DNA of 64,000 nucleotides from TPA_inf: Saccharomyces (taxonomy: Eukaryota). A program made the translations under genes and the position numbers. The stretch lies in the NCBI GenBank assembly GCA_000146045.2, contig BK006947.3, positions 256,001 through 320,000 on the forward strand, written 5' to 3'. Of this stretch, positions 24,432-35,876 are shown in pieces (position 1 is the stretch's first letter; each line of letters starts with the position of its first letter). The notes under the pieces were generated by a model. The model was not told where the DNA came from. It saw only the letters and a list, made by a program, of their open reading frames with translations, and did no database searches.

Positions 24432-25505
24432 ATGTGCAGATTCTTGATTTTCAAAGGCAAACAACCGATTCGGCTATCTCATCTTTTAACAAGACCAGCT
24501 CATTCTATCATAAACCAATCATTTGATAGCAGATTACGGCTAGACAGAAGAAGGCCAATGAATGGTGATGGTTTTGGTGTCGCTTACTATCCATTGGATA
24601 CCGAGTTAAGCGAGGACGGTCCATGCCTTTTCAAAGCTATTACTCCTGCATGGAACAACCAAAATTTGAGTACATTAGCAGAAAAAACTAAATCTGATCT
24701 GGTCTTTGCGCACGTAAGAGCCTCTACATATGGTGTCCTATCTGAGACCAATTGCCATCCGTTTACATACCACAGCTTATGTTTTATGCATAATGGCGGT
24801 ATATCTAATTTCAAAGGAATCAAGAGAAAATTATTGAATCATATCAAAGACGAATACCTGAATTTTATTCAAGGGAGCACAGACTCCGAGTGCGCATTTG
24901 CATTATTCTTAGACACTTTAGACAAATTGGGTTACGACCCAAAGAAGCAGGACGGCGATTTCGGTAATGTTGCACTAAGAAAGGCAATGTTACGAACGAT
25001 TGACTACATCAGAGATTGGACTAAAGAAGCGAACAAGGACGAGGCACATGTGGAGCCATCTCTCTTAAATTTTGCTGTAACTGACGGATCCACCGTTGTC
25101 GTTTCCAGGTATATAACTTCAAAGACGGACGAGGCAGCATCTTTGCATTTCAGTTGTGGTTCCAGCTTTGTAGAAACTTCACCAGGAGAATACAGGGTAG
25201 AAAGGTTGGATAGAAACCAAGATGTAATTATGGTTGCATCGGAACCTTTGACTTTCGAGAGAGGTGATTGGACTGCAGTACCCACCAACAGCATATTGAC
25301 CATTAAGAAACAGACAATATTACTACACCCTATTATCGATGAGTACTACCAAGAAGATCCGTTATACCTAAGAAGTTCAACCCTCGCAGAAAGCAAGGGG
25401 CTCATGGGTTCTATACCACTAGCAAAAGCCGTAGAAAAGAACGTTCCTCCACTAGAAAGAGAGGGCCGTACGAGACCTCCAACCGCTGTCGCACATATAG
25501 CATGA
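24432..25505 (+). CDS. DUG3: Dug3, class-II (Ntn) glutamine amidotransferase subunit of the Dug2-Dug3 glutathione-degrading complex (YNL191W), 357 aa
   Basis: The track start at 24429 is GTG; the true ATG is at 24432. The product starts MCRFLIFKG, with the catalytic N-terminal Cys2 typical of Ntn amidotransferases, and is 357 aa. Confidence 0.82.
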   Translation: MCRFLIFKGKQPIRLSHLLTRPAHSIINQSFDSRLRLDRRRPMNGDGFGVAYYPLDTELSEDGPCLFKAITPAWNNQNLSTLAEKTKSDLVFAHVRASTYGVLSETNCHPFTYHSLCFMHNGGISNFKGIKRKLLNHIKDEYLNFIQGSTDSECAFALFLDTLDKLGYDPKKQDGDFGNVALRKAMLRTIDYIRDWTKEANKDEAHVEPSLLNFAVTDGSTVVVSRYITSKTDEAASLHFSCGSSFVETSPGEYRVERLDRNQDVIMVASEPLTFERGDWTAVPTNSILTIKKQTILLHPIIDEYYQEDPLYLRSSTLAESKGLMGSIPLAKAVEKNVPPLEREGRTRPPTAVAHIA

Positions 25506-26394: not shown

Positions 26395-27009
26395 ATGAAG
26401 TTCTCTTCTGTTACTGCTATTACTCTAGCCACCGTTGCCACCGTTGCCACTGCTAAGAAGGGTGAACATGATTTCACTACCACTTTAACTTTGTCATCGG
26501 ACGGTAGTTTAACTACTACCACCTCTACTCATACCACTCACAAGTATGGTAAGTTCAACAAGACTTCCAAGTCCAAGACCCCAAACCACACTGGTACTCA
26601 CAAGTACGGTAAGTTCAACAAGACCTCCAAGTCTAAGACCCCAAACCATACCGGTACTCACAAGTATGGTAAGTTCAACAAGACTTCCAAGTCCAAGACT
26701 CCAAACCATACCGGTACTCACAAGTACGGTAAGTTCAACAAGACCTCCAAATCCAAGACTCCAAACCACACTGGTACTCACAAGTACGGTAAGTTCAACA
26801 AGACCTCCAAGTCTAAGACCCCAAACCATACCGGTACTCACAAGTATGGTAAGTTCAACAAAACCAAACATGACACTACCACTTATGGTCCTGGTGAAAA
26901 GGCCCGTAAGAACAATGCCGCCCCTGGTCCATCTAATTTCAACTCCATAAAATTGTTTGGTGTTACCGCTGGTAGTGCTGCCGTAGCCGGTGCCTTATTA
27001 CTATTATAA
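26395..27009 (+). CDS. YNL190W, secreted/GPI-type cell-wall protein with 20-aa tandem repeats, 204 aa
   Basis: It has an N-terminal signal peptide MKFSSVTAITLATVATVATA and a C-terminal hydrophobic GPI-like tail GSAAVAGALLLL. The middle carries five and a half copies of THKYGKFNKTSKSKTPNHTG. Confidence 0.85.
   Translation: MKFSSVTAITLATVATVATAKKGEHDFTTTLTLSSDGSLTTTTSTHTTHKYGKFNKTSKSKTPNHTGTHKYGKFNKTSKSKTPNHTGTHKYGKFNKTSKSKTPNHTGTHKYGKFNKTSKSKTPNHTGTHKYGKFNKTSKSKTPNHTGTHKYGKFNKTKHDTTTYGPGEKARKNNAAPGPSNFNSIKLFGVTAGSAAVAGALLLL
26536..26862 (+). repeat. Intragenic 60-bp tandem repeat array (5 full copies plus a 27-bp partial copy) inside YNL190W
   Basis: The unit ACTCACAAGTAYGGTAAGTTCAACAAGACYTCCAARTCYAAGACYCCAAACCAYACYGGT repeats head-to-tail at 26536, 26596, 26656, 26716, 26776 and 26836. 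Copies differ only at synonymous third positions. Confidence 0.9.
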
Positions 27010-33497: not shown

Positions 33498-35876
33498 ATG
33501 ACCACTCAAGAATCGATCAAACCTTTGGTAGATAGAATCCTATCAAATCCCCTGCAGTTCAATGCTGCAATGATCTCTAACAAATCGAATAATAATGATA
33601 CTTCCGCCGCGCCGGAAAATAGCTCGTATATTGTGATAGGAAAACAGCATAATAACAATAGTAATAGCACAGCTATTGCTGCAACGGCCGAATCCAAGCA
33701 AATAAAAGAAAATAACTTGATAGACAGGCCAAACGGAAAGAAAACCAACACTGTTCCTAAATCTATGGCTGAAGCTTTATTGTTGTATACTTCTAAAAAT
33801 GATAAAGATGCTGCAGATGCTACTGGTGCCAAGAAGTCAGCGGAGCTTTCTACGGAGCTTTCTACGGAGCCTCCTTCCTCTTCTTCGGAAGATGACAAAG
33901 TAGGAAAAGAGGAAGAGGAAGAGGGTGAAATATTTCATGAGGCAAGAGACTATGTAGAACCCCGAAAAGCTAGTTTGAAGGAACGCGACAACGCAGATAA
34001 GGGCGATGGTGAAGACATCGGCGAAGACATCGGTGAAGACATCGGTGAAGACATCGGTGAAGACATTGGTGAAGACATTGGTGAAAACTTGGGTTCTCCA
34101 TTAGCAACCATTGATGATTCATCTAATGAGAATGAAAAGGAAAAAAGAAAGGAACTGTCTACAAGCATTAGCAGTGATGACGAAATAGAAGACGACGAGG
34201 ATGAGGATGACATGGATTATGATTCTAGTGCTATGGAAAAAGAGCTCCCTGAAGAAGAGGAGAACGATTCCAGCTCCAAAATTTCTGAAGGCGAAAAAAA
34301 GAGTTTATATCAAGATTTAATGGAAAATAGTACAGTGGAAGTAAATCGGTACGAACCAGTAAACAACACCAAAGAAAATGGAAACAGGAATCCAAAGGGA
34401 GAGGAGGAGGAAGAAGAGGAAGAAGAGCTGAAACATAAATCTAGGTCAATCACCCCTCCGGTTACAATATCAAATCTATCAAACTTTTACCAATTCAATG
34501 AAAATATCAATGATCGTGGTTCTTTAAACTCTACTAGAATTGTTAAAAATTGGGGCGACAAATTCACCAATTTGAAGCCTCGTGGCCTTTTGAATCATGG
34601 TGTTACTTGTTACACAAATGCTGCTGTACAGGCTATGTTACACATTCCTTCGATACAACATTATCTTTTTGATATACTAATGGGGAAATACGATAGCACC
34701 ATCTCAAAAAATTCCGTTTCCTATACTTTAGCTGAAACAAGTAAAAAAATGTGGTTACCGGTCTCAAAAAACCCTAGAAAGAACGTTTCAGCTTCCTACA
34801 TTAATCCAAAACATTTGATTTCCAGATTGGATGACATTAATTGTATGATGAGCGAATGGCAGCAGGAAGATTCACATGAGTACTTCATGTCTCTGATGTC
34901 AAGATTACAGGAAGATTCTGTTCCCAAGGGTCATAAACTTATAGAATCGATAATATATGACATATTCGGTGGTCTTTTAAAGCAGATCGTTACTTGCAAA
35001 TCTTGTGGCAGTATATCTAAAACAGAACAACCATTTTACGATTTATCGTTGCACTTGAAAGGGAAGAAAAAACTTGATCCAAATTCTGACCTGTCGAGTG
35101 ATAGCATTAACGGCACTTCAGCCACCACTTCTACCACTACCTCCAATGCTGCCACAAAACCATCTCTTTCATCCTCTTCATCTGTCAATTTAAACAATGG
35201 CTCACCATTTGCCGCTGCCAGTGATTTAAGTTCAGCCAACCGCAGATTTTCTATTGAAAAATCAATTAAAGATTTCTTCAATCCCGAATTAATCAAGGTT
35301 GACAAGGAGCAAAAGGGTTACGTTTGTGAGAAGTGTCACAAGACCACGAACGCCGTGAAGCATAGTTCAATATTAAGGGCTCCTGAAACTTTACTTGTGC
35401 ATCTGAAAAAATTCAGATTCAATGGCACGTCCTCATCAAAAATGAAGCAAGCTGTTTCTTATCCTATGTTTTTAGATTTGACGGAATATTGTGAGAGTAA
35501 AGAGCTACCTGTCAAATACCAACTATTAAGCGTGGTGGTTCATGAGGGCCGCTCCCTTTCTTCAGGTCACTACATTGCCCACTGCAAGCAACCAGACGGT
35601 AGCTGGGCCACTTACGACGACGAGTATATTAATATAATATCTGAAAGGGACGTTTTAAAGGAACCCAACGCATATTATCTCCTATACACGAGGCTAACTC
35701 CAAAATCGGTTCCATTGCCATTGGCGAAATCTGCCATGGCCACTGGTAATGTTACCTCTAAATCCAAACAGGAACAGGCTGTTAACGAACCAAATAACCG
35801 CCCATTGAAGATTAATAGCAAGAAAAATAACAGAAAAAAATGGAAAAAAAATAAAAAAAGGAAGTTCACCAAATGA
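33498..35876 (+). CDS. UBP10: Ubp10/Dot4, ubiquitin-specific protease (H2B deubiquitinase), YNL186W, 792 aa
   Basis: ATG at 33498 and exactly 792 aa. It has the USP Cys box GLLNHGVTCYTNAAVQAML and His box HYIAHCK...GSWATYDDEY, plus an acidic N-terminal region containing a (GEDI)x6 repeat. Confidence 0.9.
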   Translation: MTTQESIKPLVDRILSNPLQFNAAMISNKSNNNDTSAAPENSSYIVIGKQHNNNSNSTAIAATAESKQIKENNLIDRPNGKKTNTVPKSMAEALLLYTSKNDKDAADATGAKKSAELSTELSTEPPSSSSEDDKVGKEEEEEGEIFHEARDYVEPRKASLKERDNADKGDGEDIGEDIGEDIGEDIGEDIGEDIGENLGSPLATIDDSSNENEKEKRKELSTSISSDDEIEDDEDEDDMDYDSSAMEKELPEEEENDSSSKISEGEKKSLYQDLMENSTVEVNRYEPVNNTKENGNRNPKGEEEEEEEEELKHKSRSITPPVTISNLSNFYQFNENINDRGSLNSTRIVKNWGDKFTNLKPRGLLNHGVTCYTNAAVQAMLHIPSIQHYLFDILMGKYDSTISKNSVSYTLAETSKKMWLPVSKNPRKNVSASYINPKHLISRLDDINCMMSEWQQEDSHEYFMSLMSRLQEDSVPKGHKLIESIIYDIFGGLLKQIVTCKSCGSISKTEQPFYDLSLHLKGKKKLDPNSDLSSDSINGTSATTSTTTSNAATKPSLSSSSSVNLNNGSPFAAASDLSSANRRFSIEKSIKDFFNPELIKVDKEQKGYVCEKCHKTTNAVKHSSILRAPETLLVHLKKFRFNGTSSSKMKQAVSYPMFLDLTEYCESKELPVKYQLLSVVVHEGRSLSSGHYIAHCKQPDGSWATYDDEYINIISERDVLKEPNAYYLLYTRLTPKSVPLPLAKSAMATGNVTSKSKQEQAVNEPNNRPLKINSKKNNRKKWKKNKKRKFTK
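34008..34091 (+). repeat. Intragenic 12-bp tandem repeat (GGTGAAGACATC)x6 plus a degenerate 7th copy inside UBP10, encoding (GEDI)n
   Basis: Seen directly in the sequence; the copies differ only at C/T wobble positions. A separate 12-bp duplication GGAGCTTTCTAC x2 (ELST) lies at 33842-33865. Confidence 0.9.

What the first reader, a model, noticed from the sequence alone, without database searches (positions are those of the whole stretch)
26395..27009. YNL190W is a small secreted/GPI-type protein built around a near-perfect 60-bp minisatellite
Five and a half head-to-tail copies of a 60-bp unit (20 aa, THKYGKFNKTSKSKTPNHTG) lie between a signal peptide and a hydrophobic GPI-like tail. The copies differ only at synonymous positions, which implies recent expansion or homogenisation by replication slippage or unequal recombination. 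Such arrays commonly vary in copy number between strains and change cell-surface properties. The repeats also create long spurious ORFs in other frames and on the opposite strand.
Basis: partly seen in the sequence, partly recalled or inferred. Interest (0 to 1): 0.5.

Follow-up and report, generated by a model that had tools for sequence, protein, structure and literature searches.

The report
Known yeast wall protein, fixed-length repeat
This is the already-annotated yeast gene YNL190W, a small secreted, GPI-signal cell-wall protein made mostly of five and a half copies of a 20-residue unit; unlike most yeast wall-gene repeats, its copy number is almost fixed across strains and sister species.

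Summary
ORF 26395-27009 (+) encodes 204 aa. It has a signal peptide, a 60-bp x 5.5 in-frame array (26536-26865) and a GPI-type C-terminus. Published YNL190W cloning primers match both ends of the ORF exactly.

The five full units encode identical peptides. All 7 variable DNA columns are synonymous third-position transitions. Codon bias (Fop 0.83; 0.94 in the repeat) supports the annotated frame. The other-frame ORF (Fop 0.29) and the antisense ORF (Fop 0.40) are by-products of the repeat.

- **Not recent.** Units differ at synonymous sites (pS about 0.32) about as much as the gene's unique 5' part differs between sister species.
- **Not length-variable in my sample.** Twenty of 21 flank-anchored S. 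cerevisiae alleles keep the 5.5-copy array, as do S. mikatae, S. kudriavzevii, S. uvarum and S. eubayanus. The one exception is a short-read metagenome contig.
- **Homogenisation is real.** Species-specific synonymous bases, and a 19-aa variant unit in S. eubayanus, have spread across units without changing their number.

More distant yeasts have 1-6 motifs with a conserved core T-H-x-[YW]-G-[RK]-F-[DN]-K-T. No Pfam family matches. The gene and its repeats are already known, so interest is low to moderate.

The parts
26395..27009 (+). YNL190W coding sequence (204 codons plus TAA)
   Evidence: ORF listed. Published YNL190w cloning primers match both ends. Fop 0.83 against 0.35-0.59 for neighbouring ORFs. 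The exact protein is on record in 168 blocks of public assemblies, mostly chromosome-size contigs.
26395..26454 (+). Signal peptide, residues 1-20 (MKFSSVTAITLATVATVATA, predicted cleavage after A-T-A)
   Evidence: Kyte-Doolittle windows above 1.0 at residues 1-8 and the A-x-A rule read from the sequence. A 64-aa N-terminal fragment was recovered as a secretion fusion partner in PMC4508530. Conserved in the family alignment.
26455..26535 (+). Short Thr-rich N-terminal segment, residues 21-47, ending TSTHT
   Evidence: Translation. It contains the best-modelled stretch of the AlphaFold model (10-residue block means peak at 78 for residues 31-40; predicted beta-hairpin).
26536..26835 (+). Five full 60-bp units (26536, 26596, 26656, 26716, 26776), each encoding THKYGKFNKTSKSKTPNHTG with two N-x-T sequons
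   Evidence: Seven variable columns, all synonymous. Units 2 and 5 are identical. Fop 0.94. Sequons listed.
26836..26895 (+). Sixth, terminal unit: the first 10 codons (to 26865) keep the core THKYGKFNKT, the rest diverges (KHDTTTYGPG)
   Evidence: The same truncated terminal unit (THKYGKFNKTK[HR]...) closes the array in the orthologues.
26914..27006 (+). GPI-attachment signal: predicted omega site N174 (N-A-A), spacer, hydrophobic tail L187-L204 (26953-27006)
   Evidence: A fungal GPI consensus pattern, recalled from de Groot et al. 2003, matches once with omega at N174; hydropathy windows 184-204. The N-[AGS]-[AGST] column and the tail are conserved in the family. The pattern matches 28 of 32 family members.
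26546..26950 (+). Spurious 134-aa ORF in another frame, created by the repeat
   Evidence: Fop 0.29. A 1-bp deletion allele reads into this frame.
26509..26871 (-). Spurious 120-aa antisense ORF, created by the repeat
   Evidence: Fop 0.40.

Best explanation
The region is S. cerevisiae YNL190W, a short, strongly codon-biased gene.

**The product.** It has a cleavable signal peptide, a mature part of about 150 residues and a C-terminal GPI-attachment signal. The mature part is almost entirely a tandem array of a 20-residue unit. That unit is very basic and rich in Thr, Lys and His. The mature part is hydrophilic (pI about 10.3, GRAVY -1.7), is not modelled with confidence as a fold, and carries 11 N-x-T sequons and 33% Ser+Thr.

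**Inferred pathway.** By analogy with fungal GPI wall proteins, it enters the ER, is N- and O-glycosylated and receives a GPI anchor at N174. It is then displayed at the plasma membrane or transferred to wall beta-1,6-glucan. There it would act as a hydrated, positively charged glycoprotein filler that affects wall permeability and water retention.

**Forces acting on the array.**
1. Strong purifying selection on the peptide, above all on the core T-H-x-[YW]-G-[RK]-F-[DN]-K-T.
2. Slow concerted evolution by exchange between units that preserves length, most simply gene conversion.
3. A constraint on unit number. The count is six motifs across the genus Saccharomyces and never more than six in the family.

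**Shown versus inferred.** Shown: the anatomy, the reading frame, the selection, the homogenisation and the copy-number constancy. Inferred: glycosylation, wall linkage and physiological role.
For: **Identity and anatomy**
- Sequence, array and ORF. Primer match. Signals and composition.
- Frame: Fop 0.83, and 0.94 in the repeat, against 0.29 and 0.40 for the alternative ORFs.

**Selection**
- 7 of 7 variable columns are synonymous (P 2e-5 to 5e-4).
- Across four species, 15 of 16 variable columns are third-position. pN is 0-0.013 against pS 0.18-0.32.

**Concerted evolution**
- Within-species unit identity is 0.92-0.96; between species it is 0.85-0.91.
- There is no positional orthology: same-position identity equals different-position identity.
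- Some synonymous bases are fixed in all five units of one species only.
- A 19-aa variant fills units 1-4 of S. eubayanus.
- Four-gamete mosaics occur among units.
- S. cerevisiae alleles carry clustered multi-site changes within one unit, and one allele has the same new TCA codon in two adjacent units.

**Constant number**
- Five species each have six motifs.
- 20 of 21 flank-anchored S. cerevisiae alleles keep the full array, in 12 distinct array haplotypes.

**Old family**
- Syntenic CHS1-DUG3-gene-SRP1 orthologues.
- About 32 representatives with 1-6 motifs of 18-22 aa period.
- Source names come from Komagataella, Ogataea, Kuraishia, Wickerhamomyces, Spathaspora, Metschnikowia and others.

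**Literature**
- Secretion fusion partner (PMC4508530).
- Detected among cell-wall and anchored proteins in a flor proteome (PMC5412306).
- mRNA bound by wall-related RNA-binding proteins (PMC8783092).
- Deletion lowers desiccation survival from about 35% to 13% (PMC3306391).
- The paper reports that deleting the K. phaffii gene it calls YNL190W roughly doubles antibody secretion (PMC13343958).
Against: - The physiological role is unsettled. A strain lacking eight hydrophilins, including ynl190w, still shows robust desiccation tolerance (PMC6054528).
- GPI anchoring, wall linkage and glycosylation were not tested here. The primary localisation papers were not available in the library.
- The omega-minus region contains R171-K172. 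By the published rule, recalled from memory, basic residues there favour plasma-membrane retention over wall transfer.
- The N-x-T sequons are not conserved in the family (F-D-K-T in many members). N-glycosylation therefore cannot explain conservation of the core.
- One 2.5-copy allele exists (L020/L030). If it is real, copy number is not strictly fixed.
- S. paradoxus, S. arboricola and S. jurei were not sampled. Only 21 S. cerevisiae alleles were examined.
Confidence: 0.8

Rival explanations
1. Contingency-type variable minisatellite. On this view the array expanded recently and changes length often by slippage or unequal recombination, and strains use different copy numbers to tune surface properties, as with FLO1, FLO11 or HPF1.
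For: - Yeast wall genes often carry length-variable minisatellites (PMC2566889; the title and abstract of PMC7263189).
- Copy number differs among distant yeasts, from 1 to 6 motifs.
- One S. cerevisiae-type contig has 2.5 copies, missing exactly the 180 bp between identical units 2 and 5.
- The 101-bp perfect identity around units 2 and 5 is a plausible recombination substrate.
Against: - 20 of 21 flank-anchored S. cerevisiae alleles, in 12 distinct haplotypes, keep the full array.
- Five Saccharomyces species all have six motifs.
- Units are as diverged at synonymous sites as sister species are in the gene's unique part.
- The single short allele comes from a short-read metagenome assembly. 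Other short-read contigs break about 30 nt into the array, so a collapse is plausible.
Confidence: 0.1
2. The conserved core T-H-x-[YW]-G-[RK]-F-[DN]-K-T is a specific functional module repeated up to six times. It might bind or cross-link wall polysaccharide, as PIR repeats do, or bind a metal or ligand through His and Tyr. On this view the array is a multivalent device rather than a generic glycosylated spacer.
For: - Core positions T1, F7 and T10 are invariant, and H2, G5, K9 and G20 nearly so, in one unit from each of 25 proteins.
- Between proteins the 10-residue spacer is only 33% identical, against 74% for the core.
- The period is held at 20 aa in most members.
- The number is capped at six.
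- The AlphaFold model places a weak beta-hairpin at each unit.
Against: - No binding or cross-linking data exist.
- The protein contains no Gln, so it cannot use the PIR chemistry.
- Model confidence is low (mean pLDDT 58).
- No relative was found in Pfam or the PDB.
- Conservation could instead reflect requirements of secretion, glycosylation or processing.
Confidence: 0.25
3. Polyprotein precursor. The tandem identical basic units would be cleaved by Kex2 or yapsins into free cationic, His-rich peptides, by analogy with the alpha-factor precursor.
For: - Tandem identical peptides follow a signal peptide.
- Each unit holds several Lys residues.
- Many orthologues have K-K in the spacer.
Against: - No K-R or R-R occurs at unit borders in S. 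cerevisiae.
- Dibasic sites are not conserved in the family; for example P0006 and P0010 have none in their repeat units.
- The GPI signal is conserved in 28 of 32 members. That signal tethers the product rather than releasing it.
- The protein is listed among wall and anchored proteins.
Confidence: 0.03

Closest known systems
Fungal GPI-anchored cell-wall mannoproteins with internal repeats (for example Sed1, Cwp1, Tir and Fit proteins)
   Same: Signal peptide, Ser/Thr-rich repetitive mature part, C-terminal GPI signal, high expression, and an mRNA bound by wall-related RNA-binding proteins.
   Different: The mature part is strongly basic (32 K+R against 5 D+E, 14 His, pI 10.3). By my recollection, yeast wall mannoproteins are typically acidic and Ser/Thr-rich. 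It is very small. The repeat has a sharply conserved core motif shared across yeast orders.
Length-variable coding minisatellites of yeast adhesin and wall genes (FLO1, FLO11, HPF1; C. glabrata mini- and megasatellites)
   Same: An in-frame head-to-tail array with a unit of tens of base pairs in a wall-protein gene. Units are homogenised within a species.
   Different: Copy number is essentially invariant in the alleles and Saccharomyces species sampled. The repeat is also conserved in orthologues of distant yeasts. [quoted passage not shown]
Hydrophilins (Garay-Arroyo criteria), such as Sip18, Stf2 and Hsp12
   Same: Meets the composition criteria as quoted in PMC3306391: Gly 9.3% (above 6%) and mean hydropathy -1.04. 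It is listed as one of 12 yeast hydrophilins, and the deletion lowers desiccation survival.
   Different: It has a signal peptide and a GPI signal, so it is routed to the cell surface. Its contribution to desiccation tolerance is disputed (PMC6054528). Hydrophilin is a composition class, not a homology family.
PIR repeat proteins (Pir1-4, Hsp150)
   Same: Secreted wall proteins with a short conserved motif repeated in tandem.
   Different: Ynl190w has no Gln at all, so it lacks the PIR consensus as I recall it (Q[IV]xDGQ[IVP]Q). It has a GPI signal and no Kex2 pro-region.

Membership tests
S. cerevisiae gene YNL190W | Sequence identity with the annotated gene | tested here: met
   The gene-specific parts of the YNL190wFw and YNL190wRv primers in PMC3306391 match 26395-26413 and the reverse complement of 26989-27009. 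The exact protein is on record in many chromosome-size NCBI contigs.
S. cerevisiae gene YNL190W | Chromosomal context CHS1 - DUG3 - YNL190W - SRP1 | tested here: met
   ORFs of 1131, 357, 204 and 542 aa lie in this order. Pfam families of the neighbours are given. The DUG3 protein cluster is named Dug3p [Saccharomyces cerevisiae].
Fungal GPI-anchored wall or membrane protein | N-terminal cleavable signal peptide | tested here: met
   Hydrophobic residues 3-20 and A-T-A before K21. The N-terminal 64 aa work as a secretion partner (PMC4508530).
Fungal GPI-anchored wall or membrane protein | C-terminal omega site with small residues, a spacer and a hydrophobic tail at the very C-terminus | tested here: met
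   The consensus pattern (recalled from de Groot et al. 2003) matches with omega at N174 (N-A-A). The tail is L187-L204. The feature is conserved in 28 of 32 family members.
Fungal GPI-anchored wall or membrane protein | Omega-minus residues that favour wall transfer (no basic pair just upstream of omega) | tested here: inconclusive
   R171-K172 lie at omega-3 and omega-2 in S. cerevisiae, whereas S. uvarum has V-V there. The rule itself is recalled from memory, not checked in a paper.
Fungal GPI-anchored wall or membrane protein | Biochemical proof of the anchor or of glucan linkage | not testable with these tools
   Only annotation-level statements were found: 'putative GPI-attachment site' (PMC4528334) and GO-based listing in a proteome.
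Length-variable coding minisatellite | Head-to-tail array, unit 10-100 bp, a multiple of 3, in frame | tested here: met
   Period 60, 5.5 copies, no indels, codon register 0.
Length-variable coding minisatellite | Copy-number polymorphism among strains | tested here: not met
   20 of 21 flank-anchored alleles have a 330-bp array; one of the 20 is 329 bp through a 1-bp deletion. One short-read metagenome contig has 150 bp. The sample is small and the exception is ambiguous.
Length-variable coding minisatellite | Copy-number difference between species | tested here: inconclusive
   Not met within Saccharomyces, where five species each have six motifs. Met among distant yeasts, with 1-6 motifs.
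Hydrophilin (composition class) | Gly above 6% and hydrophilicity index above 1 | tested here: met
   Gly 9.3% and GRAVY -1.04 for the precursor, -1.69 for residues 21-170. Criteria as quoted in PMC3306391.
Hydrophilin (composition class) | Contribution to desiccation tolerance | not testable with these tools
   The literature conflicts: PMC3306391 reports lower survival for the deletion, while PMC6054528 reports no defect in an eight-fold deletion.
PIR repeat proteins | Gln-containing PIR motif | tested here: not met
   The 204-aa protein contains no Gln (composition).
Any Pfam family or solved structure | Score above the curated threshold | tested here: not met
   Only DUF3251 at 17.4 bits, below its cutoff of 23. 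Hits across 26 family members are inconsistent. The best PDB match has E = 0.37.

The most novel reading that the evidence does not exclude
YNL190W may represent an old repeat family of budding-yeast GPI surface proteins that has no match in Pfam. Its 20-residue unit has a conserved core, T-H-x-[YW]-G-[RK]-F-[DN]-K-T. The core would be a specific functional module for wall-polymer or ligand binding, repeated at most six times. The array stays uniform through exchange between units that preserves length, while unit number is under stabilising selection. That would make it a counter-example to the usual picture of yeast wall-gene minisatellites as short-lived and length-variable.
Probability: 0.3. 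Interest if true: 0.45.

Novelty: already known. Interest (0 to 1): 0.22.

Why it matters
The gene, its internal repeats and its predicted GPI and wall nature are already annotated, so the finding as stated adds nothing new.

This check adds three modest points.
- **An exception to the expected behaviour.** Intragenic repeats in yeast wall genes are expected to vary in length. Here the array shows concerted evolution of its sequence while keeping a fixed number of units across a genus.
- **A family-wide motif.** The repeat core is conserved across several yeast orders although the spacer is free to change. This gives a concrete handle on the function of an uncharacterised wall protein.
- **A practical warning.** The array breaks or may collapse short-read assemblies, so length alleles from such data should not be trusted.

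Tried and rejected
- **Bacterial promoter and terminator scan.** Not applicable to a yeast nuclear gene, so ignored.
- **tRNA scan.** Found nothing.
- **Pfam DUF3251 hit.** Below threshold and seen in only 3 of 26 members. Treated as compositional noise.
- **AlphaFold model.** Mean pLDDT 58, so I ran no fold search because the matches would be meaningless.
- **L009 from the metagenome scan.** A chance 21-mer match inside what looks like a bacterial truA-type (pseudouridine synthase) gene, judged from the translation. Discarded.
- **The 184-aa 'allele' in GCA_012275245.1.** It looked like a one-unit loss but is a 1-bp deletion in the CCAAAC run of unit 5. The DNA array is otherwise full length.
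- **The 180-bp higher-order period reported by TRF.** It rests on units 2 and 5 being identical in the reference-type haplotype. In at least five other haplotypes unit 5 differs at four or more sites. It therefore looks like a conversion event in one haplotype rather than a stable 3-unit super-repeat.
- **Literature.** Verstrepen et al. 2005, tried under the id PMC1462868, is not held. The supplements of the HPF1 repeat paper do not mention YNL190W. I could not find a published copy-number survey for this gene.
- **Homology search.** It did not return the S. cerevisiae protein itself or sister-species proteins. I reached those indirectly through DUG3 cluster members and flanking DNA.

Full report
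**1. Observation**

The stretch 26395-27009 (+) is an ATG-to-TAA ORF of 204 codons. Tandem Repeats Finder reports one array at 26536-26865: period 60, 5.5 copies, 92% matches, no indels, score 555. A second row gives period 180 at 97%. It is the highest-scoring tandem array in the 64-kb window; only one other array scores 80 or more.

The array starts in codon register. Units 1-5 each encode THKYGKFNKTSKSKTPNHTG. The sixth unit keeps the first ten codons and then diverges. Among units 1-5 there are seven variable columns. All are third-position synonymous transitions, and units 2 and 5 are identical in DNA.

For this unit, 21% of all single changes are synonymous, and 33% of transitions. Seven of seven being synonymous therefore has probability about 2e-5 or 5e-4.

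**2. Identity and reading frame**

The gene-specific parts of the published YNL190w cloning primers match the first 19 and last 21 bases of the ORF. The neighbours are a 1131-aa chitin synthase, a 357-aa GATase (DUG3) and a 542-aa importin-alpha (SRP1). The exact 204-aa protein is on record in 168 blocks of public assemblies, mostly chromosome-size contigs.

I scored the fraction of optimal codons (Fop) with the classical set of preferred yeast codons, which is established knowledge.

| Sequence | Fop |
|---|---|
| YNL190W ORF | 0.83 |
| Repeat units only | 0.94 |
| Eight neighbouring ORFs | 0.35-0.59 |
| Other-frame ORF | 0.29 |
| Antisense ORF | 0.40 |

The annotated frame is the translated one and the other two ORFs are by-products of the repeat. 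The protein has also been listed in a flor-yeast proteome (PMC5412306).

**3. Anatomy of the product**

- Residues 1-20 form a typical signal peptide (MKFSSVTAITLATVATVATA|KK).
- The C-terminus matches a fungal GPI consensus pattern, recalled from de Groot et al. 2003, once. The omega site is N174 (N-A-A) and the hydrophobic tail is L187-L204.
- Residues 21-170 have pI 10.3, GRAVY -1.69, 32 K+R against 5 D+E, 14 His and 33% Ser+Thr.
- The precursor has 11 N-x-T sequons, two per full unit.
- It meets the hydrophilin composition criteria quoted in PMC3306391 (Gly 9.3%, hydropathy -1.04).
- The protein has no Gln, so it has no PIR motif.
- No Pfam family reaches threshold for it or for 25 relatives. 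No PDB relative was found.
- An AlphaFold model built on the family alignment has mean pLDDT 58, with only weak hairpins at each unit. This fits a largely extended or disordered glycoprotein, so I ran no fold search.

**4. Is the array recent, and does it vary in length?**

I fetched alleles by flanking sequence, so the sample is not conditioned on the array itself. The anchors were a unique 21-mer in the 5' coding part and exact look-ups of the neighbouring SRP1 and DUG3 proteins and two DUG3 variants. This gave 21 S. cerevisiae-type alleles.

- Nineteen have a 330-bp array.
- One has 329 bp, from a 1-bp deletion in the CCAAAC run of unit 5 in GCA_012275245.1. This is either a frameshift allele or a sequencing error.
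- One has 150 bp, in a contig named k141_57835 (a short-read assembler style) from ERZ27275366, with units 1, 2/5 and 6.

The short allele lacks exactly the 180 bp between the identical units 2 and 5. By my count from the unit sequences, the perfect match around them is 101 bp. Several other short-read contigs stop about 30 nt into unit 1. The short allele may therefore be an assembly collapse. The full-length alleles fall into 11 distinct array haplotypes (12 haplotypes in all, counting the 150-bp one), so the sample is not one clone.

Through members of the DUG3 protein cluster I fetched the syntenic gene from four sister species.

| Species | Length (aa) | Core motifs |
|---|---|---|
| S. 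mikatae | 204 | 6 |
| S. kudriavzevii | 204 | 6 |
| S. uvarum | 203 | 6 |
| S. eubayanus | 200 | 6 |

Each has five full units plus the truncated terminal one. The unit peptide is identical in S. cerevisiae, S. mikatae and S. uvarum.

Synonymous divergence between units within a species is pS 0.18-0.32. The unique 5' part of the same gene differs between species by pS 0.19-0.45. pN among units is 0-0.013. The array is therefore old, its length is conserved across the genus, and the absence of amino-acid differences reflects purifying selection rather than youth.

**5. Homogenisation is nevertheless real**

- Units are more alike within a species (0.92-0.96 identity) than between species (0.85-0.91).
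- Same-position units are no closer than different-position units, for example 0.910 against 0.910 for S. cerevisiae and S. mikatae.
- Several synonymous bases are fixed in all five units of one species only: column 33 G and column 57 A in S. mikatae, and column 48 T in S. uvarum, which also has C at column 54 and T at column 57 in all five units. Column 42 is A in four of five S. kudriavzevii units.
- In S. eubayanus a 19-aa variant unit (THKYGKFNKTSKTKTHRTG) occupies units 1-4, while unit 5 keeps the ancestral form.
- Within S. cerevisiae, columns 12/30, 45 and 54/57 show all four gametes among units.
- Allelic differences cluster in one unit: four to five sites in unit 5, including an N-to-D change that removes a sequon. 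One haplotype has the same new TCA codon in two adjacent units.

Together this is concerted evolution without change in unit number. The simplest inferred mechanism is gene conversion between units. Balanced gain and loss under selection for six motifs is an alternative.

**6. The wider family**

A full HMMER scan of 1.84 billion representatives found 46 hits, of which about 30 have the same architecture. Three of them sit between CHS1/DUG3 and SRP1, as in the window.

Motif counts range from 1 to 6 and the period is 20 aa in most members (range 18-22). Within a protein, units are 89% identical. Between proteins they are 53% identical, split as 74% for the ten core residues and 33% for the spacer. 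Taking one unit per protein, T1, F7 and T10 are invariant, and H2, G5, K9 and G20 nearly so.

Source names place members in Kuraishia, Ogataea, Komagataella, Wickerhamomyces, Spathaspora, Metschnikowia, Suhomyces and Maudiozyma. [quoted passage not shown] This one is conserved.

Many members have F-D-K-T instead of F-N-K-T. N-glycosylation therefore cannot be the reason for conservation of the core.

**7. Function**

- Shown by others: the N-terminal 64 aa drive secretion of a fusion (PMC4508530).
- The mRNA is bound by several wall-related RNA-binding proteins (PMC8783092).
- The deletion lowered desiccation survival from about 35% to 13% (PMC3306391).
- A strain lacking eight hydrophilins, including this one, remained desiccation-tolerant (PMC6054528).
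- The paper reports that deleting the K. phaffii gene it calls YNL190W about doubled antibody secretion (PMC13343958).

My best reading is partly inferred. It is a small, abundant, heavily glycosylated, positively charged GPI-routed surface protein that modulates wall hydration and permeability, with an array held at six motifs. I could not test the GPI anchor, the wall linkage or the glycosylation.

**8. Verdict**

The evolutionary reading is only partly right. There is homogenisation, but no recent expansion and, in my sample, no strain-level copy-number variation.

The feature is already known at the level claimed. The constant-length concerted evolution and the conserved core motif are modest additions.

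Noticed in passing
window 34008-34085: A second in-frame tandem repeat: 12 bp x 6.5 copies (GGTGAAGACATC) encoding GEDI repeated six times, then GENL. It lies inside the 792-aa ORF 33498-35876. From memory of the chromosome order this would be UBP10, but I did not verify that.
   Followed up: partly
L043 and L044, 4950-5552 (S. eubayanus): Units 1-4 carry a derived 19-aa unit (THKYGKFNKTSKTKTHRTG, one codon shorter), while unit 5 keeps the ancestral 20-aa form. The two strains differ by P/T in unit 5. This is a clear case of a variant unit spreading through the array without changing unit number.
   Followed up: yes
L025/L033 (GCA_012275245.1), array unit 5: A 1-bp deletion in the CCAAAC run shifts the frame into the repeat's spurious second-frame ORF and gives a 184-aa product with no GPI signal. 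It is either a natural null allele or a homopolymer sequencing error.
   Followed up: partly
L047-L050 and L052 (Logan short-read contigs): The contigs end about 30 nt into unit 1 of the array, so the minisatellite acts as an assembly breakpoint in short-read data. This casts doubt on the 2.5-copy allele in the contig k141_57835 (L020/L030).
   Followed up: partly
family representatives P0001-P0038: Motif counts across the family peak at 2 (10 proteins) and 6 (10 proteins), with none above 6. I found no explanation for an upper limit of six.
   Followed up: no
S. cerevisiae alleles L008, L024, L026, L031, L034-L036, L045, L046; unit 5, column 49: A shared AAC-to-GAC (N-to-D) polymorphism in unit 5 removes one N-H-T sequon. 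It occurs in at least six array haplotypes and travels with a block of synonymous differences, which suggests that unit 5 in the reference-type haplotype was converted by unit 2, or the reverse.
   Followed up: partly
L012, L015, L018 (NCBI assemblies), gene upstream of YNL190W: The called gene models fuse the chitin synthase and the DUG3-like GATase into single products of 1342-1477 aa. These are probably annotation artefacts in those assemblies.
   Followed up: no
window 24429 and 28167: The mechanical ORF list starts the DUG3-like and SRP1-like ORFs at GTG and TTG. The ATG starts at 24432 (357 aa) and 28260 (542 aa) give proteins that match public gene calls exactly.
   Followed up: yes
YNL190W mRNA (window 26395-27009): PMC7270185 treats several regions of this mRNA as evolutionarily conserved RNA folds with different protein interactors. 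In a tandem repeat under strong codon and peptide constraint, apparent structural conservation could be a side-effect. I did not examine this.
   Followed up: no
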